The notes: generated from the letters alone by a model not told the origin. Counted from the first letter of the stretch, positions 3,232 to 60,988 are shown. The stretch is DNA of 64,000 bases from Syntrophales bacterium (GCA_030018935.1 JASEGZ010000001.1:33290-97289); one strand, 5' to 3'. Numbers and translations are program-made.

Positions 3232-3261
3232 GACTTATGACTGACGACTTATGACTGACGA
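3232..3261. repeat. heptamer-type tandem repeat, family A (GACTTAT/GACTGAC)
   Basis: gacttatgactgacga x2 fills the whole prfA-prmC spacer. Confidence 0.9.
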
Positions 3262-4332
3262 CTAATGGAGAGATTGTTTCAACGCCTCGGCCTGGAAATG
3301 GGTTGTCAGGGCATCAATTATCTCCTGGATGTTTCCATCAAGAAAATTCTCCAGATCATAACGTGTCAGGCCTATACGGTGATCGGTAACTCTTCCCTGG
3401 GGGAAATTATAAGTTCTGATCCTCTCACTTCTATCCCCGCTTCCCACCTGGCTTTTTCTCGCTTCCGAGATCTCTGCGTTCTGCTTCTTCACCATCATGT
3501 CCAGTAGCCTCGCCCTCAGGATCTTCATGGCCTTTGCCTTATTTTTAAGCTGGGATTTCTCATCCTGGCAGGTAACCACCAGAGAGGTGGGCAGGTGGGT
3601 AATCCTTACGGCAGAATCTGTCGTATTTACACTCTGTCCCCCATGGCCGCTGGAGTGATAGACATCAATTCGCAATTCATTGGGATCAATATGAACTTCT
3701 ACCTCTTCTGCCTCCGGAAGGACGGCTACCGTAACCGCAGAGGTATGGATACGTCCCTGGGCCTCTGTAATGGGAACCCTCTGGACCCGGTGGACGCCGC
3801 TTTCGTACTTTAGCTTGCTATAGGCACCTTTCCCTTCAATGAGGGCGATGATTTCCTTAAAGCCCCCTACGCCACCGGCCGGGTTACTGCTCATTACCTC
3901 TACCTTCCACCGGTTTAGTTCCGCATGTCTTGCATACATCCGGAAAAGGTCCCCGGCGAAAAGCCCCGCCTCATCACCACCGGTGCCCGCCCTGATTTCG
4001 AGGAGCACATTCCTGTCATCATTCTGGTCCCTGGGAAGGAGGAGAATCTTTAATCTGTCTTCTAAAACTACTAAGTTTTCCCTAAGCTGAGGTATCTCCT
4101 CCTTGACGATTTCTTTCAGCTCCTCGTCATTTCCCCGCAGGAGATCCTGGTCTTCCTCGAGACGGCCTCTTGTTTTCTCGTATTCCCTGTAAGTTTTCAC
4201 AAGATCACGTAGATCTGCATGCTCCCTGGCATATTTCTGATAGACCTGGGGTTTGGCGACGATGTCAGGGTTACTCAATCGCCTTTCCAGTTCTTCATAC
4301 CTTGTCTCAACATCTTTAAGTCTGTCGAACAT
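3262..4332 (-). CDS. prfA: peptide chain release factor 1
   Basis: 356 aa with GGQ motif ([23 protein letters not shown]) and RF1-type N-terminus. Confidence 0.95.
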
Positions 4333-4398
4333 AACTTCACATCATCTATGGGCAGTTGTAGGTTGTGGGGTCGTATGTCATACGTCTTTCAATTTTCA

Positions 4399-4436
4399 AC
4401 TTACGACTTATGACTTATGACTTACGACTTACGACT
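4399..4436. repeat. tandem heptamers, family A
   Basis: cttacga cttatga cttatga cttacga cttacga, 5 units between rpmE and prfA. Confidence 0.9.
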
Positions 4437-4638
4437 ATTGTTTTACCCCGTACTTCTTATGGAACCGTTCCACACGGCCGGCGGTATCAACGATCTTCTG
4501 TTTGCCCGTCATAAAAGGGTGGCAGCGGGAACATATATCCACCTTTATGCCCTGTTTGGTAGACATGGTCTCAATGACGTTCCCACAGACGCAGGTAATT
4601 GTTGTTTTCTTATATTCTGGATGAATACCTTTTTTCAT
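4435..4638 (-). CDS. rpmE: 50S ribosomal protein L31
   Basis: 67 aa, [20 protein letters not shown]...[13 protein letters not shown], the zinc-ribbon L31 pattern. Confidence 0.95.
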
Positions 4639-4657
4639 CGTTCCCCTCCTTTGTTTA

Positions 4658-4749
4658 GGCTGAAGGCTGAAGACTGAAGGCTATAAAACATCTCGCAAGA
4701 CACGAATCAAGCCATTCAAAACCTTCATAGCCTTCAGCCTTCAGCCTAT
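4658..4749. repeat. heptamer-arm hairpin, family B (TGAAGGC/TGAAGAC)
   Basis: The left arm is ggctgaaggctgaagactgaaggctat, the right arm atagccttcagccttcagcctat, with a 42-nt loop. Lies between rho and rpmE. Confidence 0.9.
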
Positions 4750-4761
4750 CCACCTAAGAAT

Positions 4762-6009
4762 TTACTGATTCATGGAATCTAAGAAGGCCTGATTCGTTTC
4801 TGTCTTCCGTATCTTGTCAATGATAAATTCCATGGCATCCAACGGATTCATCTCCTGAAGAAGCCTCCTTAATATCCATATCCTGTTGAGGTTATGCTTC
4901 AGTATCAGGAGTTCTTCCTTTCTGGTACCGGAACGGATGAGGTCAAAGGCGGGAAACACCCTTCTATCAGCGATCCTGCGATCTAAGTGCAGTTCCATGT
5001 TTCCGGTTCCCTTGAACTCTTCAAAGATGACTTCATCCATTCTGCTTCCTGTGTCAATGAGGGCTGTGGAAATAATGGTCAGGCTGCCCCCATTTTCGAT
5101 GTTCCTGGCGGCGCCGAAGAATCGTTTCGGTTTGTGCAGGGCATTGGAATCAACGCCACCGGACAGGACCTTGCCGCTGGGTGGAACCACCGTATTATAG
5201 GCCCTGGCCAGCCTGGTGATACTGTCAAGAAGGATGACGACATCCCTGTTATGTTCGACGAGACGCTTCGCCTTTTCAATGACCATTTCGGCAACCTGGA
5301 CGTGCCGTGCAGCCGGCTCATCAAAGGTCGAGGATATGACCTCCCCCGCCACATTTCGCTGCATATCGGTCACTTCTTCGGGACGTTCATCAATCAGCAG
5401 AACCATCAAAATGACCTCTTTATGGTTAGTGGTAATACTGTGGGCTATATCCTGAAGTAAAACCGTTTTACCCGCCCTCGGGGGGGACACGATCAGCCCC
5501 CTCTGACCTTTACCGATGGGCGTAAAAAGGTCTATAATCCTTGTGGATAAGTTTCCCGGATTGGCCTCAAGGTTCAGTTTCTCCTGAGGATAAAGTGGTG
5601 TGAGGTTGTCGAAGAGGATTTTGTCTCTCGCTGCCTCGGGATTCTCAAAATTGACCGTATCCACCTTGAGAAGGGCAAAATATTTCTCTCCCTCCTTGGG
5701 TGGTCTGACCTCACCTGAGACCGTGTCTCCGGTCCTCATACTGAATCTTCGGATCTGCGAGGGGGAAATATAGATATCATCTGGACTGGGGAGATAGTTA
5801 TAATCTACCGCCCGGAGAAAGCCAAAACCATCCGGCAGGATTTCCAGAACACCGGCCCCGGAAATCACCCCATTTTTTTCTGCTTGGGCCTGCAGAATAG
5901 CAAAGATCAGATCCTGCCTCCTCAGGCCGCTGGCACCATTGACATTTAACTCTTTGGCCATACTTGTAAGCCTACTGATTGGTTGTCTCTTGATTTCCTC
6001 AATATTCAT
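4762..6009 (-). CDS. rho: transcription termination factor Rho
   Basis: ORF runs 4762-6039. The likely start is ATG at 6009 ([14 protein letters not shown]), preceded by AAGGAA. Walker A is [11 protein letters not shown], and Rho N-terminal and RNA-binding regions are present. Confidence 0.93.
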
Positions 6010-6285: not shown

Positions 6286-7251
6286 TCATACAAGATGATT
6301 TCTACGCCTGAGAAAATCACAGAGCCTGGCCATGTCGTCCGGCATGGGAGACGAAAAAGTCATTTCCGCATTGTTAATGGGGTGGGAGAAGGCAATCCGG
6401 CTTGCATGCAGCGCCTGCCTGGTCATTGTTCTCATCTCTGCCCTCAGAAGCGGATCCCCTATGGCGCCGACTCTTCTTGAGCTGCCGTAGATGTTGTCCC
6501 CCACCACAGGGTAACTCATGGCGTTTAAGTGGACCCTGATCTGGTGAGTCCTTCCCGTTTCCGTATCCACATCGAGGAGGGTTGCCACCCGGTACCTCTT
6601 GGAGACCCGCCAGCGTGTGATGGCCTCCCTTCCCCTCCTGCTCCTCGTGGACATCTTCTTTCGATCCACGGGGTGCCTTCCCACCGACGCATCAATCATG
6701 CCCTGATCCCCTTCCACATCTCCATACACGAGAACCTTGTAACTTTTCTGAACCTGATGTTTCTTGAACTGGGCGGCAAGCCCCCGGTGGGCTTCATCGG
6801 ATTTGGCCACGACCAGCAGGCCGGATGTTCCCTTATCCAGGCGGTGAATAATTCCGGGTCTCAAGACCCCCCCGATTCCTGAGAGATCCTTGCAGTGGAA
6901 GAGGAGGGCATTGACCAGGGTGCCCCGATCGTGACCCGGCGCTGGATGGACGACCATCCCGGCAGGTTTGTCAACCACAAGGAGAAAGGGATCTTCATAA
7001 ACAATGGTCAGGGGAATCTTCTGGGGAAGGACATGGTAGCTTGCCGCTGCCTTCTTGCAGAGGTGAACGGTATCGCCGTTTCTTAATTTGTAGCCTGCCT
7101 TTACTTTTAGATCGTTAACCAGCACCAGTCCTTCATCCACAGCCCTCTTGATCTGTGAACGGGATAGAGTCAGGTCCTTTCGGGAGAGGAAGATGTCAAG
7201 CCTCAGGCCGCTTTCATGACATGCCACAATAAATGTATATTTCTCACTCAT
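6286..7251 (-). CDS. rluD: RluA-family 23S rRNA pseudouridine synthase (RluD-like)
   Basis: 321 aa with an S4 domain N-terminus and catalytic motif HRLDKGTSGLLVVAK. Confidence 0.85.
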   Translation of the reverse strand: MSEKYTFIVACHESGLRLDIFLSRKDLTLSRSQIKRAVDEGLVLVNDLKVKAGYKLRNGDTVHLCKKAAASYHVLPQKIPLTIVYEDPFLLVVDKPAGMVVHPAPGHDRGTLVNALLFHCKDLSGIGGVLRPGIIHRLDKGTSGLLVVAKSDEAHRGLAAQFKKHQVQKSYKVLVYGDVEGDQGMIDASVGRHPVDRKKMSTRSRRGREAITRWRVSKRYRVATLLDVDTETGRTHQIRVHLNAMSYPVVGDNIYGSSRRVGAIGDPLLRAEMRTMTRQALHASRIAFSHPINNAEMTFSSPMPDDMARLCDFLRRRNHLV

Positions 7252-8663
7252 GTGGAAACGGCGTGTTTCAATCCATCTCTGATGAAGGCAAATTCCTCCT
7301 CTTCAACCGTTCTCAAATCAAAAAGGACCTGTTCTTCGGCGACCCTCGCAATAATAGGGACATCGAGACACCTCAGGCGTTCCTCCAGGGAGTTGGCCGA
7401 CATGCATCCCGGTTGAACGGCCAGCAGCATCGTCGGAATCTCGCAGGTGGGAAGAGACCCTCCCCCGGCCATAGAGAATCCCTTCTTCAGAGATAAAACT
7501 AACCCTTTTAGGCGGGCTCTTCTCAGCATGGCCAGAAGCCTCTTTGCCCTCTTTGTAACATCCGTCAGGGGTTCCGTCAGGGTCTTTAGAACCCGGAGAC
7601 GGCAGGCCGCCTTCTCCGGACGCAAATACTGGATCATCGTTGCCTCGAGAGCGGCGAGGGTCAATTTGTCAATCCGGACTACCCGGTTGAGGGGATTCTT
7701 CTTAATCCGCTGGAGGAGTTCCCTTTTCCCAAGGATAATGCCCGCCTGGGGGCCACCTAACAGTTTATCGCCACTGAAAGAGACCACATCCACTCCCGTT
7801 TCCATGACATCGGAAACAGTAGGTTCCCTCTCCAGACCATAATGGTCCAGCTCGAGAAAACAGCCGCTTCCCAGGTCCTCCATTACCGGCACGCCACGTT
7901 TTTCACCGAGCGCCACCAGTGATGCAAGCCCCGTATCCTCGGTAAAGCCCATCATCTTGAAATTACTGGTGTGGACCTTCAGGATAAGCCCGGTATTTTC
8001 CCCGATGGCGTTTTCATAATCGCTGATACGGGTTCGGTTGGTTGTACCCACTTCCCTAAGGTGGGCTCCGCTTTTGGCCATCACCTCCGGTATGCGGAAC
8101 TCACCGCCGATTTCAATAAGTTCTCCCCTCGAGACGATGACCTCCTTCCCCTCGGCTAAGGTGTTGAGAATCAGCAGGACGGCAGCGGCATTATTATTGA
8201 CGATCAAGGCATCTTCCGCCCCTGACAGGGCACAGAGAATACTCTGTATATGGTCATATCGGAGACCTCTCTGTCCCCTGGCCAGGTCAAACTCGAGGTT
8301 TGAGTATCCTCCGCCGACCTCCAGCACCCTTTCGAGGGCTTCCCTGCAGAGGGGGGCCCTGCCCAGATTGGTATGCAGGATGGTTCCCGTTGCATTCACA
8401 ACTCTGCGGAGACGGTATTGGTGAAGGACTTCGATGATTTCGGTAACCTTATCTGCAACCTGCTTTGCCACAGGCAGGCGGATACTTATTTCCTCCCCCC
8501 CTGTTTTCATAATTGTGTGTCGTAGATCTTCCACCACCTGCCGGCAGGTAGCTTTTACGATCTCCCGCGGCGCCTTTTCATAAATCCCCTTTTTTTCTAA
8601 AAGGACCAGCAATTCATCAATGCTGGGAAGACTGCTCAACAATGCTTTTTTCCGCTCATCCAT
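7248..8663 (-). CDS. selA: L-seryl-tRNA(Sec) selenium transferase
   Basis: ORF track extends to 8768. The probable start is ATG at 8663 (MDERKKALLSSLPSIDELL), preceded by AAGGAAAGGAA. The PLP-lysine region FSGDKLLGGPQAG is typical of SelA. Confidence 0.9.
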   Translation of the reverse strand: MDERKKALLSSLPSIDELLVLLEKKGIYEKAPREIVKATCRQVVEDLRHTIMKTGGEEISIRLPVAKQVADKVTEIIEVLHQYRLRRVVNATGTILHTNLGRAPLCREALERVLEVGGGYSNLEFDLARGQRGLRYDHIQSILCALSGAEDALIVNNNAAAVLLILNTLAEGKEVIVSRGELIEIGGEFRIPEVMAKSGAHLREVGTTNRTRISDYENAIGENTGLILKVHTSNFKMMGFTEDTGLASLVALGEKRGVPVMEDLGSGCFLELDHYGLEREPTVSDVMETGVDVVSFSGDKLLGGPQAGIILGKRELLQRIKKNPLNRVVRIDKLTLAALEATMIQYLRPEKAACRLRVLKTLTEPLTDVTKRAKRLLAMLRRARLKGLVLSLKKGFSMAGGGSLPTCEIPTMLLAVQPGCMSANSLEERLRCLDVPIIARVAEEQVLFDLRTVEEEEFAFIRDGLKHAVST

Positions 8664-8737
8664 ACTATTCCTTTCCTTTTCCCCTGCCTGTTCCTCTCCT
8701 CCCTTCTCACCCTTCATATTCATTCGAGGCATGCCTT

Positions 8738-8815
8738 TAAGGCACGATCTTGGCCCGGCAAAAATCACGGAAGTTGTTTACCGCAATAAAAAACTCCCGC
8801 ATCATCATGATCAAC
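8738..8815 (-). pseudogene. orphan 3'-terminal fragment of a hemN-like radical SAM gene (copy A of a direct repeat)
   Basis: 8739-8798 is 60/60 identical to 24181-24240, and the match continues to 8815 / 24254 with one 3-nt indel. The minus strand reads ...LIMMMREFFIAVNNFRDFCRAKIVP-stop, which is the C-terminus of the intact gene at 24179-25450 plus one extra Met codon. No upstream coding part is present. Confidence 0.8.
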
Positions 8816-9051
8816 AACCTTTCCTCCCCTATTCTTTCCCTATTGATGTCTATTGTGATTGTGGGAAAAAGGAAAGTAAATACAGTAAATATATGAGAAA
8901 TTATCTTACGGGTCAAGAAAATACCACATTTATCCGATCATGGCCTGAACCACCTCGAGTGGCGTTTCACCTGTGAAGACCTCACCGTTTTCCTCAAGCG
9001 GACGTTGGTGTGGTATCCGTACCAGCGTACCAGATGCAGTTGATCTGTCAA

Positions 9052-9144
9052 AGTAAACAAACCTCAAACTGGTGAATAAATCAGCGGTGGCGAGTTGGGA
9101 AGAGGGAAGAAAAGCCGCTATATGGACGCGCCCCCATGTTAGAG
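9052..9144 (-). other. attC-like site (most distal)
   Basis: Plus strand reads AGTAAAC ... aaatcagcggtggc ... gccgctatatgg ... GTTAGAG. The 14-nt inner arm aaatcagcggtggc is shared with the attC at 14901-14958. Confidence 0.5.
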
Positions 9145-9413
9145 TTTGTCGAGTGGCTTCAGCTATAAGAGTTACCTCCTATGGCTTCACTCCCAGCTAC
9201 CTGGATGAATGAGGAATTTCCAGGACAGGTCTCTCACCTGCAAGCCTTGAGTCCTCCACGGCGCACTTTTCCGCATCCGGCTCTTCAGGCAGGCTCACAG
9301 ATAATCTCTGATAGCCGAATCAGTTCCGTTCACAATGTTTCTCCAGGCTCTGTGTCCTGCATTGTCTCCCTTCCTCAGTACACCCGCCTGTCAACCCCTT
9401 CCCTCCACCGGCA

Positions 9414-9677: not shown

Positions 9678-9908
9678 TGTCCGTCCTTTCTTTTTGCCAT
9701 CTTACCAATAATCCTCAAATGAAGCAATCATGATATCCCTGTAAAAAAGGATAAAGCACTTTTGTTTAATTATTAATTTTGTTAGATGAAAGGGTAAAAC
9801 CCCTGTGTGTCTGGGGTTTCTGTTTTGTGATATAATTGACTACACCTACCTACAAGTCTACATATTTGAATATTTTAAAAAAGCGAAGATTACCAAAAGA
9901 AATAGGGA

Positions 9909-10111: not shown

Positions 10112-10117
10112 CGATTG

Positions 10118-10865: not shown

Positions 10866-10866
10866 C

Positions 10867-26655: not shown

Positions 26656-26684
26656 CAGGTCATAAGTCATATGTCATATGTCAG
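26654..26684. repeat. family A heptamer palindrome
   Basis: gacaggtcataagtcatatgtcatatgtcag, immediately after the gcvH stop. Confidence 0.85.
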
Positions 26685-30379: not shown

Positions 30380-30520
30380 GTAAGCGTTCAGCAATCAGCC
30401 GTCAGCTTTCAGTAAAAAACAGATGCTTAGACGAGCCCCCTCTTTTTGCTAAAGCAATGTTTTTATGGATAATACGTTACTTTTCTTTGTCTTGCTGATG
30501 GCTGACTGCTGAATGCTTAC
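30380..30520. repeat. heptamer-arm hairpin, family C (TCAGCNN), capped GTAAGC...GCTTAC
   Basis: gtaagcgttcagcaatcagccgtcagctttcag ... cttgctgatggctgactgctgaatgcttac. Lies in the valS leader. Confidence 0.9.
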
Positions 30521-30542: not shown

Positions 30543-33221
30543 ATGGGCAAGAAGTCGTTGAGTAAGGTCTATGAGCCTCGCGAGTCAGAGGCAAAGTGGT
30601 ACAAGTTCTGGTTTGATCACGGTTTCTTCCGGGCAGAGGACAAGAGTTCGAAGCCCCCATTTTCTATTGTCATTCCCCCTCCCAACGTTACGGGGATGCT
30701 CCACATGGGGCATGCCTTGAATAATGTTCTCCAGGACATCATCATCCGGTTTAAAAGGATGCAGGGGTATAATACCCTCTGGATGCCGGGGATGGATCAT
30801 GCGGGAATAGCTACCCAGAATGTTGTTGAGCAGGAACTGGCGAGGGAGGGTATCACAAGACACGATCTCGGTAGAGAAAAGTTTATTGAGCGAATATGGG
30901 AGTGGAAGGCAAGATACGGGGGTGTAATCATCAACCAGCTCAAGCGACTGGGGTGCTCCTGTGACTGGTCTCGGGAACGCTTTACCATGGATAAGGGCTT
31001 ATCCAGGGCGGTGCGGGAGGTCTTCGTCAGGCTGTATGGCAAGGGTCTGATATATCAGGGTGATTATATCGTAAACTGGTGCCCCCGCTGTCACACCGCT
31101 ATCTCAGACCTTGAGGTGGAATATAAAGAGGAAGAGGGTTTTCTCTGGCATATCCGCTATCCCCTTGCGGATAGTAATGTAGCGCTTGTGGTGGCCACGA
31201 CGCGACCGGAGACGATGCTTGGTGACACGGCAGTTGCCGTTAACCCGAACGATGAACGATACAGGGATAAAATCGGGAAAGAGGTGATCCTGCCCTTGGT
31301 CGGCAGGAAGATACCTATCGTTGCCGACGATTATGTGAGCATGGAGTTCGGTTCCGGGGCGGTGAAGGTCACCCCTGCCCATGATCCCAATGACTTTGCC
31401 ATTGCGGCAAGACACAAACTCGAAGCCATCAAGATCATGGACGGCGATGCCGTGATCAATGAACGGGGAGGTCTTTATCAGGGGCAGGATCGCTACGAGT
31501 GCAGGGGAAATATCGTCGGGGATCTGGAGAAGGAAGGATTCCTCGTCGGCAAGGAACCTTATATCCACCGTATCGGACAGTGTTATCGGTGCGGGACAGA
31601 CATTGAGCCGACCATTTCGAGACAATGGTTTGTCAAGATAAAACCCCTGGCGAAGATGGCGAGTACGGCCGTGGTCAAAGGGAAAACGAAGATCGTACCC
31701 GCCACCTGGGAGGCGACCTATTTTGAATGGCTGAACAATATCAGGGACTGGTGTATTTCGCGACAGATATGGTGGGGGCACAGAATTCCCGTGTGGTATT
31801 GCGACAACTGTGGAGAGATGATTGTCTCCGCCCGGGATCCGGATAAATGCCCTTCCTGCGGTGAAATTAGCTTAAGGCAAGAAGAGGATGTCCTGGATAC
31901 CTGGTTCAGCTCCGCCCTCTGGCCCTTTTCCACCCTCGGATGGCCGGACAAGACCGGGGCATTAAAGGCATTTTATCCCACCTCTGTTCTGATTACCGGT
32001 TTTGATATCCTCTTTTTCTGGGTGGCCAGGATGATGATGATGGGGCTGTACATCATGAAGGATGTACCCTTCAGGTACGTGTATCTCCACGCCCTTGTGC
32101 GGGATGAAAAGGGTGAAAAGATGAGTAAGTCCCGGGGGAATATTATAGATCCTATAGAGATGATTGATAAATATGGCGCCGATGCCTTCAGATTTACCTT
32201 AGCCGCCTTTACGGCCCAGGGCAGAGATGTGCGGATGTCCGAGGAGCGGATTGAGGGCTATAAGTTTTTTGTGAATAAGATCTGGAATGCCACTAAGTTC
32301 TCTCTGATGAATCTAAAAGACTACCCGGCGGGGGTTCATGTTGGAAGGGACGGGGAATCCCTTGCCGACCGCTGGATTAAGGACAGACTGAATGCAACCA
32401 TTACCGAGATAATCAGTGCCCTCGATGAGTATCGCTTTAATGAAGCGGCCACAAGTATTTATCAGTTTATCTGGCACGAACTCTGCGACTGGTACCTGGA
32501 GATGATAAAACCCGTCCTCTACGGGAGGGGGAACCCTGTAGGGAGACTTGCCGCCCAGCATACGTTGTTTACCGTATTAAAAACTTCTCTGAAACTACTT
32601 CACCCCTTTATGCCCTTCGTTACCGAAGAGATATGGCAGGCCCTGGTCAACAATGGCAGCTCCATTATGGTTAGTGAATTTCCTTCTGCCGATGATGACA
32701 ATCGGGATCCGGAGGCAGAAAAAAAGATGGCCGTTATTATGGAGGTGATCAGTAAGATCAGGAATATCAGGGGCGAGATGAATATAGCGCCGTCGCAGAG
32801 GATAAAGGTGATTATCTCTGTCCCGGATAAGGAATTGAGTGCCGTTATAGAAGAGGGGAAAGATTACATCGTGGATCTGGCCCATCTCGAGACCCTGACC
32901 ATCAGGGGTGATGTGGGAGAACCGAAGGGTGCGGCGACGGGTGTCGTCGGTTCCATGCGGATCTTTGTTCTGTTGGAAGGGATGGCCGATATTGCCGCAG
33001 AGAAGGCAAGACTCGAAAAGGAAATAGCGAAGGTGACCAGGGAACTGACCTTTGTCTCGAAAAAACTGGCCAACCGTGATTTCCTGACAAGGGCTGCGGA
33101 GACAGTGGTTAAAAAGGAAGAGGAGAAATTCAGGGAACTGAGGGATAAACATGTTATGCTGGAGGCAGCCATCAGAAAGGTTCGGGAGATGGGAATGGAG
33201 ACCCTAAGCACGAAATCCTAA
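30543..33221 (+). CDS. valS: valyl-tRNA synthetase
   Basis: 892 aa with HIGH-type (PNVTGMLHMGH) and KMSKS motifs and a C-terminal coiled coil. Confidence 0.95.
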   Translation: MGKKSLSKVYEPRESEAKWYKFWFDHGFFRAEDKSSKPPFSIVIPPPNVTGMLHMGHALNNVLQDIIIRFKRMQGYNTLWMPGMDHAGIATQNVVEQELAREGITRHDLGREKFIERIWEWKARYGGVIINQLKRLGCSCDWSRERFTMDKGLSRAVREVFVRLYGKGLIYQGDYIVNWCPRCHTAISDLEVEYKEEEGFLWHIRYPLADSNVALVVATTRPETMLGDTAVAVNPNDERYRDKIGKEVILPLVGRKIPIVADDYVSMEFGSGAVKVTPAHDPNDFAIAARHKLEAIKIMDGDAVINERGGLYQGQDRYECRGNIVGDLEKEGFLVGKEPYIHRIGQCYRCGTDIEPTISRQWFVKIKPLAKMASTAVVKGKTKIVPATWEATYFEWLNNIRDWCISRQIWWGHRIPVWYCDNCGEMIVSARDPDKCPSCGEISLRQEEDVLDTWFSSALWPFSTLGWPDKTGALKAFYPTSVLITGFDILFFWVARMMMMGLYIMKDVPFRYVYLHALVRDEKGEKMSKSRGNIIDPIEMIDKYGADAFRFTLAAFTAQGRDVRMSEERIEGYKFFVNKIWNATKFSLMNLKDYPAGVHVGRDGESLADRWIKDRLNATITEIISALDEYRFNEAATSIYQFIWHELCDWYLEMIKPVLYGRGNPVGRLAAQHTLFTVLKTSLKLLHPFMPFVTEEIWQALVNNGSSIMVSEFPSADDDNRDPEAEKKMAVIMEVISKIRNIRGEMNIAPSQRIKVIISVPDKELSAVIEEGKDYIVDLAHLETLTIRGDVGEPKGAATGVVGSMRIFVLLEGMADIAAEKARLEKEIAKVTRELTFVSKKLANRDFLTRAAETVVKKEEEKFRELRDKHVMLEAAIRKVREMGMETLSTKS

Positions 33222-33348
33222 ATCCTAAACAAACTCAAATGGCCAAAATTAAAAATTCAAAACAATATGATTTGGAAGAGCGCACCTTGAAATTTATTAG
33301 AGTAAAATAGTTTTGAAATTTGGATTTGTTTTAGGATTTAGTGCTTAG
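33204..33348. repeat. heptamer-arm hairpin, family D (AAATCCT)
   Basis: ctaagcacgaaatcctaaatcctaaacaaactcaaat ... atttggatttgttttaggatttagtgcttag. The left arm overlaps the last valS codons. Confidence 0.9.
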
Positions 33349-33376: not shown

Positions 33377-34258
33377 GTGATCTCGTATTTTATGAAATCT
33401 ATCGTACCCTGGCTGATACAGGCAGCCCTGGAAGAGGATGTAGGGACAGGGGATGTTACAACTGGTGCTGTGCTTACAGGTGAAGAAGTTGGTTATGCGC
33501 AGGCGGTGGCCAGATCGGCGCTGGTGGTGGCGGGGATAGATATTTTCAAAGAGGTTTTTCTCTTCTCGGATGGAGATTTAAAGTTTACTGGCGAGAGGGA
33601 AGATGGTCAGATGGCGGCACCGGGTGATGTCTTGGCGGAAATCTCCGGGAAGCTCAGCACCATTCTGACGGCGGAGAGGGTGGCCCTCAATTTTTTTCAG
33701 AGGATGTGTGGCATTGCCACATTGACGAGACAGTATGTAGACGAGGTCAAGGGGACACAGGCAAAAATCCTGGATACGAGGAAGACGGTGCCGGGTCTCA
33801 GGGTTCTTGACAGGTATGCCGTAAGGATCGGAGGTGGTTTTAACCACCGGTTTGGCCTGTATGATGGTGTCCTGATCAAAGACAATCATATCGCCGCGGC
33901 AGGTGGTATATCCTGTGCTGTGGCCAGGGTTCGGGATCGTATTCCCCATACATTGAAGGTGGAGATTGAAGTCAGGAATCTGAGGGAGGTTGAAGAGGCC
34001 ATTGCTTCGGGGGTGGATGTGATTATGCTCGATAACATGAGTATCGGTGAGATGAGGGAAGCGGTTTCCCTCATCAGGGGAAGAATACCACTTGAGGCAT
34101 CGGGAGGTGTCAACCTTTCCAATGTGAAACAGATTGCCGAGACGGGAGTTGATCTTATCTCGGTAGGCGCACTGACCCACTCCGTAACGGCATCGGATAT
34201 ATCCTTGCAAATCAGGGAACAGAGGCCAGGAAACAGGGATCGGGATTTGAAGGATTAA
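33377..34258 (+). CDS. nadC: nicotinate-nucleotide pyrophosphorylase (carboxylating)
   Basis: 293 aa (GTG 33377; alternative ATG 33392). N-terminal ALEEDVGTGDVTT, and full length is QPRTase-like. Confidence 0.88.
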   Translation: MISYFMKSIVPWLIQAALEEDVGTGDVTTGAVLTGEEVGYAQAVARSALVVAGIDIFKEVFLFSDGDLKFTGEREDGQMAAPGDVLAEISGKLSTILTAERVALNFFQRMCGIATLTRQYVDEVKGTQAKILDTRKTVPGLRVLDRYAVRIGGGFNHRFGLYDGVLIKDNHIAAAGGISCAVARVRDRIPHTLKVEIEVRNLREVEEAIASGVDVIMLDNMSIGEMREAVSLIRGRIPLEASGGVNLSNVKQIAETGVDLISVGALTHSVTASDISLQIREQRPGNRDRDLKD

Positions 34259-34281
34259 TAACCCATGACCCATAACCTGCT

Positions 34282-35092: not shown

Positions 35093-35857
35093 ATGCTTTT
35101 AGCCATTGATGTGGGAAATACAGACACTGTCCTTGGTTTATATGATGGAGATAAACTGGTACATGACTGGAGGATCAGGACAGTTGTTGATCATACCGTG
35201 GATGAGTACGGGATGCTGATCCTCAATCTGTATAAATCACGCAGGATCAGCTCGAAGGTAATTAAGGATATTATCATTTCCTGTGTCGTTCCGCCGATGT
35301 TGAATATCTTAGAGCCGGTTTGCAGTAAATATTTTGCTATCAAGCCCTTGATTGTCGGGCCAGGCATCAAGACGGGAATGCCGATCTTTTATGATAATCC
35401 GAGGGAAGTGGGTGCCGACCGGATTGTCAATGCCGTTGCGGCCTATGAAAAACACAGGAGGGAGCTTATTATCGTAGATTTTGGCACCGCCACTACCTTT
35501 GATTATGTGTCAGGCAAAGGGGAATATATGGGGGGATGTATATCGCCCGGTATTACGATCTCCTCTGAGGCCCTCTTTGCCCGGGCGGCGAAGCTGCCGA
35601 GGGTGGAATTGAGCAAACCCAGGTCCATCATCGGCAAGGATACGGTAAGCAGTATGCAGGCAGGAATCGTGTATGGCTATGCGAGCCTTGTGGATGGTAT
35701 CATTGATCGTATGAAAGCGGAGGTGAAATCAGATCCATTGGTTGTGGCAACAGGGGGACTGGCGAAGATCATCGCACCTGAAACAAAAAGCATCGCTGTG
35801 GTTGATGAAATGCTTACCCTCGAAGGGCTTCGCATCATCTATTTGCGAAACAGGTAA
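35093..35857 (+). CDS. coaX: type III pantothenate kinase
   Basis: 254 aa with [10 protein letters not shown] and DFGTATT motifs. Confidence 0.9.
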
Positions 35858-35952
35858 CTACTTCCGAATTTACCAAATTGGTTGTTGTGGAAGACATACA
35901 CTGCTTCTATTCTGGATTCTGGCTCCTGAGTAGTTACGATGGATGTGGCATT

Positions 35953-40048: not shown

Positions 40049-40152
40049 GTAAGCCATCAGCCATTAGCCATTAGCGATCAGGGGTCAGAATTTAGAATTT
40101 ATGCATCTTCCTGTTTTAGCTGAAAGCTGACAACTGAGAGCTGGAGGCTTAC
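40049..40152. repeat. heptamer-arm hairpin, family C, capped GTAAGC...GCTTAC
   Basis: gtaagccatcagccattagccattagcgatcagg ... agctgaaagctgacaactgagagctggaggcttac. The arms pair imperfectly. Confidence 0.8.
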
Positions 40153-40161: not shown

Positions 40162-40833
40162 GTGAAAACTGTACATCTCCATATAGATGGTAGAGAAGTA
40201 GAGACTCTCGTAGGTAGTAAGATACTATGGGCAGCTCTCGATAACGGTGTCTATATTCCCAATTTATGCGCCATCAGGGAAAGAGGTGAACCTTTTGCCT
40301 CCTGTCGCTTATGTTTTGTGGAGGTAGAGGGGAGGGAAAGGCCGGTTACTGCCTGTACGACATCAGTAACAGAAGGGATGGTAGTTGATACCAAGGGGTC
40401 AAAGGCCTTAAGGCTGGCAAGAACAGCATTTGAGCTGATTTTGAGTAACCATTTGCTCGATTGTGCCCACTGCCCTAAAAAGGGCTCATGTGAATTACAC
40501 AGGATTGCCAGGCATCTGGGTGTGAAACTTAATACAGAGAGATTCAGGAAAGTTCTCCGGGATCTGCCGGTAGATACAAGCAGTCCTGTATTTACATATA
40601 TCCCTGATAAATGTGTCCTCTGTGGCAGGTGTGTTTGGGTGTGTGAGGAGAAGCTCGGTGTAGGAGCTATTGGTTTTGCCTATCGTGGCTTTCAACGGCG
40701 GGTTACCACCTTTGGGGACGAGCCTCTAAGTGTATCCGGGTGCCAGACCTGTATCGAGTGCGTTGACGTTTGTCCTGTGGGCGCCTTGGTACCCAAAGAA
40801 GGAGGGCAAGCTTTTGTTCTTACTGAAAGCTGA
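40162..40833 (+). CDS. [2Fe-2S]/[4Fe-4S] ferredoxin-like protein (NuoG/HydA N-terminal type)
   Basis: 223 aa, GTG start. 2Fe-2S-type N-terminus (IDGREVE...CRLCFVEV), the HxxxC...C motif (HLLDCAHCPKKGSCEL), and two CxxCxxCxxxCP-like motifs. Confidence 0.7.
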   Translation: MKTVHLHIDGREVETLVGSKILWAALDNGVYIPNLCAIRERGEPFASCRLCFVEVEGRERPVTACTTSVTEGMVVDTKGSKALRLARTAFELILSNHLLDCAHCPKKGSCELHRIARHLGVKLNTERFRKVLRDLPVDTSSPVFTYIPDKCVLCGRCVWVCEEKLGVGAIGFAYRGFQRRVTTFGDEPLSVSGCQTCIECVDVCPVGALVPKEGGQAFVLTES

Positions 40834-40855
40834 CGGCTGAGAGCTGAACACTTAC
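40823..40855. repeat. family C half-element (right-arm type)
   Basis: ctgaaag ctgacgg ctgagag ctgaaca cttac. Overlaps the stop of the Fe-S gene. Confidence 0.8.
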
Positions 40856-49026: not shown

Positions 49027-49046
49027 GTAAGTGTTCAGCTATCAAC
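49027..49046. repeat. family C half-element (left-arm type)
   Basis: gtaagtgttcagctatcaac. Its first 14 nt are the exact reverse complement of 40842-40855. Confidence 0.8.
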
Positions 49047-53013: not shown

Positions 53014-53018
53014 AAAAT

Positions 53019-53074
53019 AGTCATAAGTCATAAGTCGTAAGTCGTAAGTCGTAAGTCAAAAGACGTATGACGTA
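53019..53074. repeat. tandem heptamers, family A
   Basis: gtcataa gtcataa gtcgtaa gtcgtaa gtcgtaa gtc aaaa gacgtatgacgtaa. Confidence 0.9.
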
Positions 53075-57251: not shown

Positions 57252-57360
57252 AAATTCTAAATACGAAATACTAAATCCTAAACAAGCACAAATGTTCAAA
57301 ATACAAATGACTCAAACAAAAAAGTTTAAAATTTTGATATTTGAATTTGTTTAGAATTTT
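57252..57360. repeat. heptamer-arm hairpin, family D
   Basis: aaattctaaatacgaaatactaaatcctaaacaagcacaaatg ... tttgaatttgtttagaatttt. Shares aaatcctaaacaa with 33204-33348. Lies upstream of hdrA. Confidence 0.85.
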
Positions 57361-60300: not shown

Positions 60301-60414
60301 GCGAAGTGTAAGGGGTGTGGATCCTGTGCGGCGGAATGTCCAGCTATGGCCATAGAACTGATGCATTTTCGCGAAGCCCAGCTTGAGGCCAAATGCCAGG
60401 CACTCATGTCATAA
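57379..60414 (+). CDS. hdrA: large HdrA-like flavoprotein with duplicated FAD/Fe-S module
   Basis: 1011 aa with two GGGxAG FAD motifs (VVGGGIAGIQ, VIGGGVAGIT), two C.GSR...CS..CC signatures and several ferredoxin motifs. No in-frame stop codon. Confidence 0.88.
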   Translation: MTDKIGAVMVVGGGIAGIQASLDLAESGYYVYLVESSPAIGGVMAQLDKTFPTNDCAMCIVSPKLVEAGRHLNIEVLTYSEVVKVEGEPGNFRVTVRKKPRYIDISKCTGCGACIEACIMKKGVPSEFEEGLARRKPIYILFPQAVPLKAVIDEKSCLFLSRGKCQKKCVEACQAGAIDLDQQEEMVVMEVGSIILSPGFDEFDARRLTAYGYGRFPNVITSIQFERILSPSGPFQGTILRPSDQKTPKKIAWIQCSGSRDMTEMGGNEYCSSICCMYAIKEAVIAREHQPDVEPTLFYMDIRAHGKGFDAYYERAKEEHGVRFIRSMVSRVAERPKSKNLMITYVDSENHLQEEEFDLVVLSVGLTPSKGAREVAQTLGLELDAYGFCKTGGFSPLDTSRSGIYVCGTFQGPKDIPETVAQASAAVTNASGLLAGVRGTMMKKKDLPPEIDVRGGEPRIGVFVCHCGTNIGGVVNVPGVKEYARNLENVVYTDESLYACSQDSQEKIKDAIREYKLNRVVVASCSPRTHEPLFRETVREAGLNKYLFEMANIRDQCSWVHMHEKEKATIKAKDLVRMAMANARLVQPLHESIVSVIPKGLVIGGGVAGITASLKLAQQGYEVFLIEKEAELGGNARNIHYTIEGEDVQEYLQDLIGQVTAHPLIVVITNALVVDFSGSRGNFSTGIMVAPTMYYQKIEHGITIVATGAEEWKPTEYLYGEDPRIVTQLELEGSIASHPEETTQLRQVVMIQCVGSRNEERPYCSRVCCAEAVKNALKLKALSPGAKIYILYRDMRTYGLLESYYTKARKEGIMFVKYDPGNKPEVKKEGKNLFVSLMDDTIGERVALKPDLLVLSAATIPRGNKELANLLKVPRTAEGFFLEAHMKLRPVDFATDGLYLAGTGHGPKLISESISQAMAAAARACTILSKEKILVGGVVAVVDGERCAACLTCVRVCPYEVPVINVRGEAEIDIAKCKGCGSCAAECPAMAIELMHFREAQLEAKCQALMS

Positions 60415-60431
60415 AACATCAGTCATACGTC

Positions 60432-60498
60432 ATACGTCATAAGTCGTAATATAAAAGACATAAGACATAAGACATATGACATATGACGTGTGTCAACA
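60432..60498. repeat. heptamer-arm hairpin, family A
   Basis: gtcatacgtcatacgtcataagtcgtaa tataaaa gacataagacataagacatatgacatatgacg. Lies between hdrA and mvhD. Confidence 0.9.
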
Positions 60499-60514
60499 GG
60501 TAGGATAAAGAGGT

Positions 60515-60940
60515 ATGGTGGAAAATAACGGTTTTGAGCCGGAGGTTCTCGCTTTTTGTTGTGAGTATTGAGCCTATACCGCAGCGGACCTGGCAGGTTC
60601 GATGAGGCTCGATTATCCCAGCAATGTGAAGATTGTGAAGGTCCCCTGTACGGGAAGGGTGGATATCCTGATGATTCTTCGCACCTTTGAGTCTGGGGTG
60701 GATGGTGTATTTGTGGCCGGATGTCTCGAAGGAGAATGCCATTTTCTTAAAGGTAATCTAAGGGCGAAGAAGCGTGTTCAGTATGTGAAAGAATTACTGG
60801 ATGAGTCGGGGATTGGTGGTTCACGGTTAGAGATGTACAACATGTCTGCTGCTGAGGGGCAGCGGTTTGCCGCAGTAGCCAAAGAAATGACGGAGAAGAT
60901 TCGATCCCTGGGACCGTCTCCCGTAAAAACAGGTAGATAG
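60515..60940 (+). CDS. mvhD: MvhD-like [2Fe-2S] protein with in-frame UGA (selenocysteine)
   Basis: The track shows only 60602-60940. Reading from ATG 60515 (after AAAGAGG) gives MVENNGFEPEVLAFCCEY-TGA-AYTAADLAGSMRLDYPSNVKIVKVPCTGRV. The UGA (60569-60571) aligns with the Cys of the MvhD motif FCCNWC.Y.GADLAG. Confidence 0.8.
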
Positions 60941-60988
60941 ACTGAAGGCTGAAGACTTTTAGGACACTTCAGCCTTTGGTCTTCAGCC
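60941..60988 (+). terminator. family B heptamer hairpin after mvhD (possible terminator or RNA-stability element)
   Basis: ggctgaagac (60947) pairs with gtcttcagcc (60979). There is no clear U-tract, so the terminator function is uncertain. Confidence 0.35.

What the first reader, a model, noticed from the sequence alone, without database searches (positions are those of the whole stretch)
3232..60988. Four families of intergenic tandem-heptamer repeats, often arranged as long hairpins (STRR-like)
At least 13 intergenic sites consist of 7-nt units repeated 3-6 times. Family A is GTC(A/G)TAA / TTA(T/C)GAC at 3232, 4399, 26654, 53019 and 60432. Family B is TGAAG(G/A)C at 4658 and 60941. Family C is TCAGCNN with GTAAGC...GCTTAC caps at 30380, 40049, 40823 and 49027. 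Family D is AAATCCT-type at 33204 and 57252. Most occur as two inverted arms 20-40 nt long around a 7-80-nt loop, placed exactly between stop and start codons and sometimes overlapping the last codons. Heptameric STRR repeats are classically described in heterocystous cyanobacteria. A comparable system in a Wood-Ljungdahl anaerobe is unusual as far as I know. The elements could act as RNA-stability or processing signals, protein-binding sites or recombination hotspots.
Basis: seen in the sequence. Interest (0 to 1): 0.6.

Follow-up and report, generated by a model that had tools for sequence, protein, structure and literature searches.

The report
Heptamer-repeat hairpins, partly IS66-type MITEs
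The spacers between housekeeping and Wood-Ljungdahl genes of this uncultured Syntrophales bacterium hold about 15 small elements built from 7-base repeats; several are miniature transposons with IS66-family ends whose arms have been stretched by repeat slippage, which links two kinds of bacterial junk DNA usually described separately.

Summary
Period-7 tandem repeats are the only enriched period in the window (11 regions, against 0-1 for other lags and 0.02 in shuffles). All of them lie in the 10% of the window that is non-coding. All 13 cited sites check out, and I found three more.

The window comes from a Syntrophales MAG. Close relatives carry such elements in the same operon spacers, but with different units, copy numbers, or nothing at all.

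The STRR-like reading is only part of the story. Families B and C and a new AGCCAGA type are short palindromic elements capped by a conserved terminal inverted repeat, GTAACTACTCAGG or GTAAGCG. That cap is the end of IS66-family insertion sequences. A full 1833-bp IS with the same end, an 8-bp target duplication and a DDE_Tnp_IS66 transposase was recovered. Filled and empty sites and 8-bp duplications are seen in relatives.

On top of this, heptamers expand in place by slippage (5 units against 2 against 1 at orthologous sites). Slippage is the only process shown for family A. Family D is a recent insertion without a recognised end.

Heptamer-rich intergenic DNA is already known in several phyla, and GTCRTAA arrays occur in at least 120 loci of other phyla. 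Any effect on mRNA is inferred, not shown.

Verdict: new variant of known kinds, moderate interest.

The parts
3230..3265 (-). Family A direct array in the prfA>prmC spacer. In the sense strand it reads TAGTCGTCAGTCATAAGTCGTCAGTCATAAGTCATG, and the prfA stop TAG is its first triplet. No hairpin.
   Evidence: z = +1.0. L001 carries an identical array. L003 and L125 carry a GGTTCAG hairpin here instead.
3197..3224 (-). TTTGAAC/TTCAGC remnant arm next to the family A array. It is homologous to the right arm (CCTTGAAC)n of the hairpin that L125 and L003 carry at this site. It lies in the over-called 5' end of prmC, whose likely start is the ATG at 3192.
4370..4437 (-). Family A hairpin in the rpmE>prfA spacer. 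The long arm (GTCRTAA)x5 is at 4399-4437 and the short inverted arm is at 4370-4386.
   Evidence: z = -5.2. Copy number is 5 here, 2 in L001 and L125, and a single TTCGTAAG in L004. L003 has no element.
4654..4765 (-). Family B palindromic element in the rho>rpmE spacer. The arms (GGCTGAA)n are at 4727-4749 and 4654-4684. A degenerate IS66-type cap GTAAATTCTTAGG at 4753-4765 contains the rho stop codon. The 3' cap is lost.
   Evidence: (z = -9.1). L003 has a shorter copy. L001 has (TAGCTCA/TAGTTAA)x14 instead.
26659..26684 (+). Family A direct array (GTCATAA GTCATAT GTCATAT GTCAG), starting 3 nt after the gcvH stop codon. No hairpin.
   Evidence: z = +0.7
30380..30520 (+). Family C palindromic element upstream of valS. 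Its 24-nt TIR is GTAAGCGTTCAGCAATCAGCCGTC against GTAAGCATTCAGCAGTCAGCCATC (21 of 24). The tip GTAAGCG matches the canonical IS66 end. The loop is 82 nt and a T-run follows the element.
   Evidence: z = -8.0; literature on the IS66 tip
33204..33348 (+). Family D palindromic element in the valS>nadC spacer (CTAAGCAC + AAATCCT units ... GTGCTTAG). The valS reading frame now ends inside it.
   Evidence: z = -3.5. The site is empty in L201, L202 and L203.
34258..34277 (+). A small ATAACCC/ATGACCC x3 array that splits the nadC/birA junction. The two genes overlap in relatives.
   Evidence: (absent in L201 and L202; L203 has an ACTCGCA array at this site)
35854..35937 (+). An 84-bp MITE with IS66-family caps. 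The left cap is GTAACTACTTCCG (3 mismatches) and contains the upstream stop codon. The right cap is an exact CCTGAGTAGTTAC, 2 nt before the next ATG. The inner arm is TTCTGGA/AGCCAGA heptamers.
   Evidence: The site is empty in L202. The same cap plus AGCCAGA arrays sits at nusA>infB in L003 and L126.
40049..40152 (+). Family C palindromic element in the folD>ferredoxin spacer (GTAAGCC + CATCAGC/CATTAGC units ... AGCTGAN units + GGCTTAC).
   Evidence: z = -3.2
40819..40855 (+). Family C solo right end, (AGCTGAN)x4 + CACTTAC. The ferredoxin gene's stop codon TGA lies inside the array.
   Evidence: z = -2.1
49027..49046 (+). Family C solo left tip GTAAGTGTTCAGCTATCAAC, the reverse complement of the 40855 end. 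Only about 2 units, so this site is weak.
   Evidence: z = -0.7
53017..53074 (+). Family A element in the nuoF-like>cooC spacer. (GTCRTAA)x6 is followed by a short inverted arm GACGTATGACGTA.
   Evidence: z = -2.3. L198 has a homologous spacer with a single TCGCAAG.
57252..57359 (+). Family D hairpin in the hdrC-like>hdrA-like spacer (AAATWCT units ... AAATTTG/TAGAATTT).
   Evidence: z = -2.6. L198 has no array in this spacer.
60417..60488 (+). Family A hairpin in the hdrA-like>mvhD spacer. (GTCATAC/GTCRTAA)x4, an ATATAAA loop, then (AAGACAT/ATGACAT)x5. The hdrA stop TAA lies in a GTCATAA unit just upstream.
   Evidence: z = -6.3. L198 has no array in this spacer.
60923..61007 (+). Family B MITE in the mvhD>metV spacer. 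The left end GTAAAAACAGGTAGATAG is degenerate and encodes the last 5 codons and the stop of mvhD. Arms are (CTGAAGR)n. The right end CAGCCTAAACACCTGAGTAGTTAC carries an exact IS66-type cap at 60995-61007.
   Evidence: (z = -4.3). The same right end is found in the L001 and L125 aroA>hisD elements. The same loop TTAGGACAC is found in the L003 rho>rpmE element.

Best explanation
Two processes are layered on each other.

(1) Miniature transposons. Several of the elements are miniature inverted-repeat transposable elements (MITEs) of about 70-150 bp. These are family B, the AGCCAGA type at 35854-35937, and probably family C. Their ends are the terminal inverted repeats of IS66-family insertion sequences: GTAACTACTCAGG..., as in the single-ORF ISBst12 group, or GTAAGCG..., the canonical IS66 tip. 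They encode nothing. They would be moved in trans by an IS66-family DDE transposase encoded elsewhere, inserting with an 8-bp target duplication. The copies that survive are those in the short spacers between co-directional genes, often at the stop codon itself.

(2) Slippage. This lineage, like some cyanobacteria, Bacteroidota and others, amplifies 7-nt units in non-coding DNA, most plausibly by replication slippage. This acts on the arms of the MITEs, producing arrays of different heptamers behind one conserved cap. It also acts on seeds in ordinary spacers and is the only process shown for family A. Family D at valS>nadC is a recent insertion whose ends I could not assign to an IS family.

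Because the elements lie inside operons, they are co-transcribed and can fold into long imperfect hairpins. An effect on mRNA processing or decay (an RNase III substrate, or a barrier to 3' exonucleases, as for Correia, ERIC and REP elements) is a likely side effect.

What is shown: period-7 enrichment, intergenic placement, the cap, its identity with an IS66-family end, 8-bp duplications, filled and empty sites, and copy-number differences.

What is inferred: mobilisation in trans, slippage as the amplifying mechanism, and any RNA-level consequence.
For: A conserved cap:
- The 13-nt cap GTAACTACTCAGG borders heptamer arrays of different sequence: CTGAAGG, GGTTCAA, AGCCAGA, AGGCACA.
- In 158 kb of this lineage it occurs 7 times exactly and 7 times with one mismatch. 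About 0.005 and 0.19 are expected.

The cap is an IS66-family end:
- ISDge4 (IS66 family, ISBst12 group) has TIRs GTGACTACTCAGCA and GTAACTGCTCAGCA and an 8-bp direct repeat (PMC12898284).
- IS66 inverted repeats start GTAAGCG and give 8-bp direct repeats (PMC11946415).
- Own test: L254 2463-4295 is an 1833-bp element with TIRs GTAACTACTCAGGTAGGT... and a perfect 8-bp duplication TCTTTTTG. Its 535-aa ORF matches PF03050 DDE_Tnp_IS66 (E = 8.7e-36) plus zf-IS66.
- L229 5746-5901 is a 156-bp MITE with the same TIR and the 8-bp duplication GTAAGTGC.

Target duplications in the Syntrophales copies:
- L003 11621-11705: GTTCGATA / GTTCGATA.
- L125 9126-9273: AAAGGGTT / AAAGGGTT.
- L001 10836-10940: GAAGGGTT / AAAGGGTT.

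Filled and empty sites:
- aroA>hisD is empty in the window and L003, and filled in L001 and L125 (alignment A1).
- valS>nadC and coaX>next are filled only in the window.

One element type at unrelated loci:
- The family B right end CAGCCTAAACACCTGAGTAGTTA is at mvhD>metV in the window and at aroA>hisD in L001 and L125.
- The AGCCAGA type is at coaX>nuoE-like in the window and at nusA>infB in L003 and L126.

In-place expansion:
- rpmE>prfA has 5 units in the window, 2 in L001 and L125, and 1 in L004.
- nuoF>cooC has 6 units in the window and 1 in L198.
- The aroA>hisD left arm has 7 units in L125 and 3 in L001.

An internal control: the low-GC mobile island at 9-19 kb has none of these elements. 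This fits accumulation over time in the native genome.
Against: - No IS66-family transposase is present in the window or in any related contig I fetched. A cognate mobilising enzyme in this organism is therefore not shown.
- Clear 8-bp duplications are seen in only three capped copies, all in relatives. None of the window's own copies shows one.
- Families A and D, 7 of about 16 parts, have no recognisable IS66-type ends. At two sites family A is better explained by in-place growth from a homologous single-copy seed.
- The family C link rests on a 7-nt tip and a 21/24 TIR. A scan for an IS with that end found nothing.
- Heptamer arrays in other phyla show no conserved cap in their flanks. None of 123 cap hits in viral contigs is followed by heptamers. 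The two phenomena are therefore separable.
- Why the unit is 7 nt is unexplained.
Confidence: 0.6

Rival explanations
1. Pure simple-sequence repeats. All elements are STRR-like long SSRs generated in place by a 7-nt slippage bias, and the hairpins arise by local inverted duplication. No element is mobile.
For: - Unit-number differences at orthologous sites, with single-copy seeds in repeat-poor relatives.
- Many different units: 15 in 149 kb of this lineage and 145 in 828 kb of other heptamer-rich genomes.
- The arms are often unequal in length, for example 5 against 2.5, 6 against 2 and 7 against 2 units.
- There is published precedent for heptamer SSR over-representation.
Against: It cannot explain:
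- the conserved 13-nt cap shared by arrays of different units;
- the cap's identity with an IS66-family end;
- perfect 8-bp flanking duplications;
- whole-element presence or absence with exact boundaries;
- the same non-repeat tail and loop at unrelated loci.
Confidence: 0.2
2. Selected RNA elements. The hairpins are maintained because they act in polycistronic mRNAs as processing or stability determinants, or as insulators. Stop-containing heptamers would put a stop in all three frames right after each gene.
For: - All elements lie in transcribed spacers between co-directional genes, 0-10 nt after stop codons.
- Family A is in the same orientation relative to transcription in 5 of 5 cases. 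In other phyla the upstream gene is on the same strand in 56 cases against 31.
- 8 of 13 units contain a stop codon, against 34% expected.
- Seven hairpins are far more stable than shuffles.
Against: - Sense and antisense folding energies show no consistent advantage for the transcribed strand.
- Elements are absent from the same spacers in relatives that share 82-90% protein identity.
- Arm lengths are unbalanced and three sites have no hairpin.
- No Rfam family matches and no element is terminator-like.
- In this window, gene strand and GC skew switch together near 16 kb. Orientation relative to transcription therefore cannot be separated from orientation relative to replication.
Confidence: 0.1
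3. A REP/REPIN-like system. The palindromic elements are mobilised as single-stranded hairpins by a RAYT (IS200/IS605-like Y1 transposase).
For: - The elements are palindromic doublets in intergenic DNA at REP-like density.
- An uncalled RAYT/IS200-like remnant (motif AYCLMSNHVHF) lies upstream of the nuoF-like gene in relative L198 at 7198-8055.
Against: - REP/RAYT and IS200/IS605 transposition makes no target duplication, whereas 8-bp duplications are seen here.
- The conserved end matches a DDE IS66-family element.
- L198, which carries the RAYT-like remnant, has no heptamer arrays in 20.7 kb.
Confidence: 0.04
4. Arrays of binding sites for a protein that reads 7 nt per subunit. Candidates are cold-shock-domain proteins, which MacGregor suggested for TAACTGA, or a HutP-like antiterminator that recognises UAG every 7 nt.
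For: The strict 7-nt period. MacGregor 2015 cites work showing that CspB binds heptamer repeats, one protein per heptamer. Some units contain UAG (TAGCTCA in L001).
Against: At least 15 unrelated units occur in one lineage. This rules out a single sequence-specific reader. Rapid turnover of the unit at a fixed locus argues against a conserved operator.
Confidence: 0.03

Closest known systems
MITEs derived from IS66-family insertion sequences (ISBst12 group; ISDge4 is the described active member, PMC12898284)
   Same: The terminal inverted repeat GTAACTACTCAG..., the 8-bp target duplication, small non-coding palindromic bodies, multiple copies at unrelated loci, and filled and empty sites.
   Different: - The arms here are filled with tandem heptamers that differ between copies.
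- No cognate transposase was found in the DNA at hand.
- I found no paper describing IS66-type MITEs with heptamer arms. A string search for the cap and array sequences returned only unrelated primers.
Cyanobacterial STRR heptanucleotide repeats (Mazel et al. 1990, recalled from memory; cited as three tandem heptanucleotides of Calothrix PCC 7601 in PMC4692102)
   Same: Tandem 7-nt units, several families per genome, intergenic and dispersed.
   Different: - The unit sequences differ; none of the three STRR consensus units is tandem here.
- The host is a different phylum.
- Here many arrays are paired as inverted arms and some carry transposon ends.
TAACTGA intergenic direct repeats of Beggiatoaceae, Cyanobacteria and Bacteroidetes (MacGregor 2015, PMC4679880)
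   Same: - Heptamers containing stop codons.
- Almost all are intergenic.
- They overlap the stop codons of upstream genes.
- They have a patchy multi-phylum distribution and are mixed with other heptamers.
   Different: - TAACTGA sets are direct repeats placed just upstream of start codons. Only one inverted set was reported.
- No transposon ends were described.
- TAACTGA itself is not tandem in this window.
Long simple-sequence repeats with 5-11-nt units (Mrazek et al. 2007, as summarised in PMC4679880 and PMC4692102) and GGGAATC repeats of Xanthomonas
   Same: Heptamers are the over-represented unit length. The repeats are intergenic and vary in length between close relatives. Some Xanthomonas examples are arranged as inverted repeats.
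   Different: Those repeats are treated purely as SSRs or G-quadruplex motifs. The units here are not G-rich, and part of the elements are bounded by IS ends.
Co-transcribed palindromic repeats: Correia elements (Neisseria), ERIC, REP/BIME/REPIN and BOX elements (properties recalled from memory; REPINs in PMC3116915)
   Same: Small palindromic multi-copy elements inside operons that fold into RNA hairpins. BOX elements also have a variable number of internal tandem modules.
   Different: The ends and the transposition chemistry differ. The internal modules here are 7 nt (boxB is 45 nt) and are not conserved in sequence.

Membership tests
Heptamer long simple-sequence repeats (LSSR sensu Mrazek 2007) | Tandem repeats of a 5-11-nt unit, longer than composition predicts | tested here: met
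   11 period-7 regions against 0.02 in shuffles. No other period is enriched.
Heptamer long simple-sequence repeats (LSSR sensu Mrazek 2007) | Preferentially intergenic, with unit-number variation between close relatives | tested here: met
   10 of 10 are intergenic. Orthologous sites carry 5, 2 and 1 units.
Cyanobacterial STRR | Tandem heptanucleotide units dispersed in intergenic DNA | tested here: met
Cyanobacterial STRR | Unit consensus STRR1 CCCCAGT, STRR2 TTGGTCA or STRR3 CAACAGT (recalled from memory) | tested here: not met
   There are no tandem copies of any of the three in the window.
Cyanobacterial STRR | Host is a (heterocystous) cyanobacterium | tested here: not met
   The source contig is named as a Syntrophales MAG.
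IS66-family MITE | Terminal inverted repeats matching IS66-family ends (GTAA...) | tested here: met
   - The cap GTAACTACTCAGG matches the ISDge4 TIRs.
- It also matches the ends of a DDE_Tnp_IS66-encoding element, L254.
- Family C starts GTAAGCG.
- This is met for family B, AGCCAGA and C, but not for A or D.
IS66-family MITE | 8-bp target-site duplication | tested here: inconclusive
   The duplication is perfect in L003 and L125 and 7 of 8 in L001. It is absent in the window copies and in L003 10811-10892.
IS66-family MITE | Short, non-coding, multi-copy at unrelated loci, with filled and empty sites | tested here: met
   The elements are 82-148 bp. The same type occurs in different spacers. 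aroA>hisD, valS>nadC and coaX>next are polymorphic between relatives.
IS66-family MITE | A cognate autonomous IS or transposase in the same genome or lineage | not testable with these tools
   None is present in the 64-kb window or in about 120 kb of related contigs. The rest of the genome could not be fetched.
REP/REPIN-RAYT | No target duplication, and a RAYT gene flanked by the repeats | tested here: not met
   8-bp duplications are present. The only RAYT-like remnant seen is in L198, which lacks the arrays.
Intrinsic terminators | A GC-rich short-loop hairpin followed by a T-run | tested here: not met
   No element appears among the terminator-like sites, and counts equal the shuffles. Only the 30380-30520 element is followed by a T-run, and its loop is 82 nt.
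Any Rfam RNA family | A match at gathering score | tested here: not met
   The only hit in the window is a group II intron fragment at 9134-9243.

The most novel reading that the evidence does not exclude
The scattered heptamer-rich-genome syndrome (STRR, TAACTGA, GTCRTAA and similar arrays in Cyanobacteria, Bacteroidota, Beggiatoaceae, Chloroflexia and now Syntrophales) may not be independent slippage. It may be seeded and spread by IS66-family ends or MITEs, or by machinery travelling with them.

On this reading, heptamer units such as GTAAGTC and TAACTGA would be iterated transposon tips (GTAAG..., GTAACT...). That would explain why the same units recur in distant phyla.

Hints:
- Family A units read GTAAGTC.
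- The ISBst12-type tip reads GTAACTG or GTAACTA.
- A Bacteroidia MAG (L008 15-194) has the exact Syntrophales cap, the same subterminal TAGGCT, and heptamer-like arms.

Against: flanks of 531 array ends in other phyla show no conserved cap.
Probability: 0.1. Interest if true: 0.8.

Novelty: new variant of a known kind. Interest (0 to 1): 0.5.

Why it matters
Intergenic heptamer repeats have been catalogued in bacteria for decades without an accepted origin or function (the 1990 date for the first STRR report is from memory). This window shows one concrete route by which such arrays arise: the arms of IS66-family miniature transposons act as substrates for 7-nt amplification.

It also shows that these elements enter the tightest places in a genome. 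They sit in stop-start junctions inside essential operons (rho-rpmE-prfA-prmC, valS-nadC-birA, the acetyl-CoA pathway cluster). In places they rewrite the last codons of ValRS, MvhD and a ferredoxin.

That gives a tractable system for three questions:
- How can operons tolerate, or exploit, long hairpins between cistrons?
- What sets the 7-nt unit?
- Are heptamer-rich genomes in different phyla connected by mobile DNA?

On the practical side, these elements break assemblies, shift called gene ends in MAGs, and give strain-level markers.

Tried and rejected
- Exact-protein look-ups with my own ORF calls for valS and the second cooC found nothing. The start codons probably differ from the deposited calls. 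The organism was identified through PrfA instead.
- Sense against antisense RNA folding, as a test for selection at the RNA level, showed no consistent difference.
- Rfam at gathering threshold gave no family for any element. There are no tRNAs in the window.
- Promoter and terminator consensus scans flagged no element, and counts equalled the shuffles.
- The PrmC-based metagenome scan returned only four close relatives. The other 69 loci served as a background set.
- A literature string search for the cap and array sequences returned only unrelated primer matches. A search on 'STRR' was swamped by the STRRIDE clinical trials.
- A scan of viral contigs for the family C tip GTAAGCGTTCAGCA gave 120 single chance hits and no inverted partner.
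- A search for a conserved cap in the flanks of heptamer arrays of other phyla found none. The IS66 link should therefore not be generalised.
- Stop-codon content of the units (8 of 13 against 34% expected) is suggestive but too weak to carry an argument.
- CRISPR was considered and dropped. There are no unique spacers of regular length between repeats and the units are only 7 nt.
- Assembly artefact was considered and dropped. Orthologous copies occur in independent assemblies from ENA and JGI samples.

Full report
**1. The observation**

I read all 13 cited sites and ran Tandem Repeats Finder. Each site holds 2.5-6 (once about 11) tandem 7-nt units of the stated family.

A lag-autocorrelation scan shows that period 7 is the only enriched period:
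- 11 regions at lag 7.
- 0 at lags 3-13, apart from 1 at lag 9.
- 5 at lag 14, which is twice 7.
- 0.02 on average in shuffled sequence.

With a gene map built from ORFs and Pfam, 9 of 10 stricter regions lie in the 10% of the window that is intergenic. The tenth lies in an over-called 5' end of prmC. After correcting two start codons, all ten are intergenic, p about 1e-10. Single units of each family are also enriched in intergenic DNA.

As background, 470 kb of unrelated bacterial loci contain 3 period-7 regions. The same loci contain 55, 119 and 50 regions for the coding-compatible periods 6, 9 and 12.

The site at 49027 is weak.

RNA folding with dinucleotide shuffles gives strong hairpins (z <= -3) at seven sites, weaker ones at three and none at three.

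**2. Context**

The window comes from a MAG named Syntrophales bacterium. PrfA and NadC are 100% identical to proteins from a 108,503-bp contig.

The elements sit between co-directional genes of conserved operons:
- rho-rpmE-prfA-prmC on the minus strand.
- gcvH-lipA.
- valS-nadC-birA-coaX.
- The Wood-Ljungdahl cluster: folD, ferredoxin, acsE, acsB, acsD, nuoF-like, cooC, hdrC/A-like, mvhD and metVF.

Elements begin 0-10 nt after the upstream stop codon, or supply it themselves. A low-GC mobile island at 9-19 kb has none. It carries an integrase, a PIF1-WYL helicase, a DNA methylase, ParE and a group II intron fragment.

No element matches an Rfam family or a terminator consensus.

**3. Relatives show fast turnover at fixed sites**

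I fetched contigs from relatives through PrfA, PrmC, CooC and NadC homologues.

| Spacer | State in each sequence |
|---|---|
| rho>rpmE | Window and L003: GGCTGAA hairpin. L001: (TAGCTCA/TAGTTAA)x14. L125: another repeat. L004: nothing. |
| rpmE>prfA | Window: 5 GTCRTAA units. L001 and L125: 2. L004: a single TTCGTAAG in an otherwise alignable spacer. L003: nothing. |
| nuoF>cooC | Window: six units. L198: one TCGCAAG. |

These cases show growth in place.

Relatives at about 82-88% protein identity (L004, L198, L199, L202, L203) have no arrays at the scan threshold; L203 holds one short ACTCGCA array below it. L001, L003, L125 and L201 do have them.

**4. Some elements are transposons**

The aroA>hisD junction is a tight stop-RBS-start in the window and in L003. 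In L001 and L125 it holds a 105-148-bp palindromic family B element (alignment A1).

That element starts GTAACTACTCAGG and ends CCTGAGTAGTTA(A/C). It is flanked by a duplicated AAAGGGTT: perfect in L125 and 7 of 8 in L001.

The same 13-nt cap borders arrays of quite different heptamers (CTGAAGG, GGTTCAA, AGCCAGA, AGGCACA). It is seen in the window (35925-35937 and 60995-61007) and in L001, L003, L125 and L126. There are 7 exact and 7 one-mismatch copies in 158 kb, where 0.005 and 0.19 are expected.

L003 11621-11705 has a perfect 8-bp duplication, GTTCGATA.

Further filled and empty pairs:
- The family D element at valS>nadC is present only in the window. L201, L202 and L203 read ...GCGGCCTAAAGGGGGG.... 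The ValRS frame in the window now ends inside the element.
- The capped element at 35854-35937 is absent in L202.
- The nadC/birA overlap is split by a 23-nt ATAACCC array in the window and by an ACTCGCA array in L203.

The same element type occurs at unrelated loci:
- The family B right end plus tail is at mvhD>metV in the window and at aroA>hisD in relatives.
- The loop TTAGGACAC is shared between window 60941 and L003 rho>rpmE.
- The AGCCAGA type is at coaX>next in the window and at nusA>infB in L003 and L126.

**5. Identity of the cap**

Literature:
- ISDge4 is an active IS66-family element of the single-ORF ISBst12 group. It has TIRs GTGACTACTCAGCA and GTAACTGCTCAGCA and makes an 8-bp direct repeat (PMC12898284).
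- IS66 inverted repeats start GTAAGCG and give 8-bp repeats (PMC11946415).

Own test: a scan of viral contigs for GTAACTACTCAGGT gave mostly chance hits but three inverted pairs.
- L254 2463-4295 is an 1833-bp element with about 28-bp TIRs beginning with the exact cap and a perfect 8-bp duplication, TCTTTTTG. Its 535-aa ORF matches PF03050 DDE_Tnp_IS66 (E = 8.7e-36) and zf-IS66.
- L229 5746-5901 is a 156-bp MITE with the same TIR and the 8-bp duplication GTAAGTGC.

The cap is therefore an IS66-family end. The capped Syntrophales elements have the anatomy of MITEs.

Family C starts with the canonical GTAAGCG, GTAAGCC or GTAAGTG and has a 21/24 TIR. A scan for an IS with that end found nothing, so that assignment is weaker.

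Families A and D have no recognisable IS66 end.

**6. Relation to heptamer repeats elsewhere**

By my arithmetic for a uniform composition, about 2 are expected by chance. The hits are mainly Bacteroidota, Cyanobacteria, Gammaproteobacteria, Chloroflexia, Patescibacteria and Acidobacteriota.

In those loci:
- 117 of 125 arrays are intergenic.
- The upstream gene is on the same strand in 56 cases against 31.
- Arrays start a median of about 9 nt after its stop codon.
- About a dozen loci have inverted arrays.
- The loci are heptamer-rich in general, with 395 arrays of 145 units in 828 kb.
- Their flanks show no conserved cap.
- None of 123 cap hits in viral contigs is followed by heptamers.

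Heptamer amplification and IS66-type MITEs are therefore separable phenomena that coincide in this lineage.

One Bacteroidia MAG element (L008 15-194) does share the exact cap, the subterminal TAGGCT and heptamer-like arms.

Published work already documents heptamer SSR over-representation and TAACTGA and GGGAATC arrays (PMC4679880, PMC4692102). I found no paper linking such arrays to IS66 ends.

**7. Mechanism and its limits**

Shown:
- The anatomy of the elements.
- The ends and their identity with an IS66-family end.
- Target duplications.
- Site polymorphism.
- Unit-number change.

Inferred:
- Mobilisation in trans by an IS66-family transposase. None is present in the DNA I could reach.
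- Slippage as the cause of amplification.
- RNA-level effects.

The RNA-function rival gains some support from the uniform orientation of family A, the stop-rich units and the stable hairpins. Against it:
- Strand-specific folding gives no signal.
- Elements are dispensable in close relatives.
- The arms are unbalanced.
- In this window, gene strand and GC skew flip together near 16 kb. Transcription and replication orientation are therefore confounded.

The REP/RAYT model conflicts with the target duplications. The reason for a 7-nt unit remains open.

**8. Verdict**

This is a new variant of known kinds, namely heptamer long SSRs and IS-derived MITEs. It sits in a lineage, and in an architecture (heptamer-armed MITEs inside essential operons), that I did not find described. 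Interest is moderate (0.5).

Noticed in passing
window 60515-60940 (TGA at 60569-60571); L198 18729-19160: mvhD (FlpD domain) has an in-frame TGA in the motif AFCCEY*AYTAADLAG, conserved in relative L198. It is very likely a selenocysteine codon. The ORF finder therefore calls the gene only from 60602. selA lies in the same window at 7248-8768 (-).
   Followed up: partly
window about 9000-19400: A low-GC (0.43-0.45) mobile island. It carries a tyrosine integrase (16436-17746), a PIF1-like helicase with a WYL domain (17743-19323), an N6/N4 DNA methylase (11486-12463), a DUF2971 protein, a ParE toxin (15698-16039) and several ORFs without a Pfam match. It has no heptamer elements.
   Followed up: partly
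window 9134-9243 (-): An Rfam match to group II intron domains D1-D4 (RF02003, 57 bits), with no intron-encoded protein next to it. Probably an intron fragment at the edge of the island.
   Followed up: no
window about 16000: GC skew and gene orientation switch together: negative skew and minus-strand genes to the left, positive skew and plus-strand genes to the right. The cumulative-skew minimum is near 16 kb. This could mark a replication origin region or simply the strand switch. No dnaA was seen.
   Followed up: no
window 33186-33221, 60923-60940 and 40819-40833: The last codons and stop codons of ValRS, MvhD and the 2Fe-2S/4Fe-4S ferredoxin are encoded by the inserted elements. The C-termini therefore differ from those of relatives: ValRS ends ...EMGMETLSTKS* here and ...EMEAA* in L201 and L202.
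   Followed up: partly
L198 7198-8055: An uncalled reading frame upstream of the nuoF-like gene in a relative. It has the IS200/RAYT-type motif ...AYCLMSNHVHFICVP..., so it is likely a decayed Y1 transposase. That contig has no heptamer arrays.
   Followed up: no
L254 2463-4295; L229 5746-5901; L012 5949-6044: Complete IS66-family elements and MITEs with the GTAAC(T/A)ACTCAGG end occur in IMG/VR contigs and in a Chloroflexia MAG. The Chloroflexia copy is a 96-bp near-perfect hairpin without heptamers.
   Followed up: partly
L008 15-194 (Bacteroidia MAG, Lake Pavin): A 180-bp palindromic element with the exact Syntrophales cap GTAACTACTCAGG, the same subterminal TAGGCT / AGCCTAAACA motif and heptamer-like arms. 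This is the only cross-phylum hint that capped heptamer elements are shared.
   Followed up: partly
L125 5408-5498 and 7780-7886: Another dispersed repeat, AAGTGAGCTAAAGTTT(G/A)AAGTGCCTAAAGTT, occupies two different operon spacers of one relative (rho>rpmE and prmC>aroA). I did not classify it.
   Followed up: no
window 41761-41887 and 51051-51138: Non-heptamer inverted repeats in two other spacers: GGGCGGTGTAGACGACAACGTC...GACGTTGTCGTCTG, and CCTGTTCCTGACAGTTTCAGGAACAGG. These are ordinary hairpins and not part of the finding.
   Followed up: no
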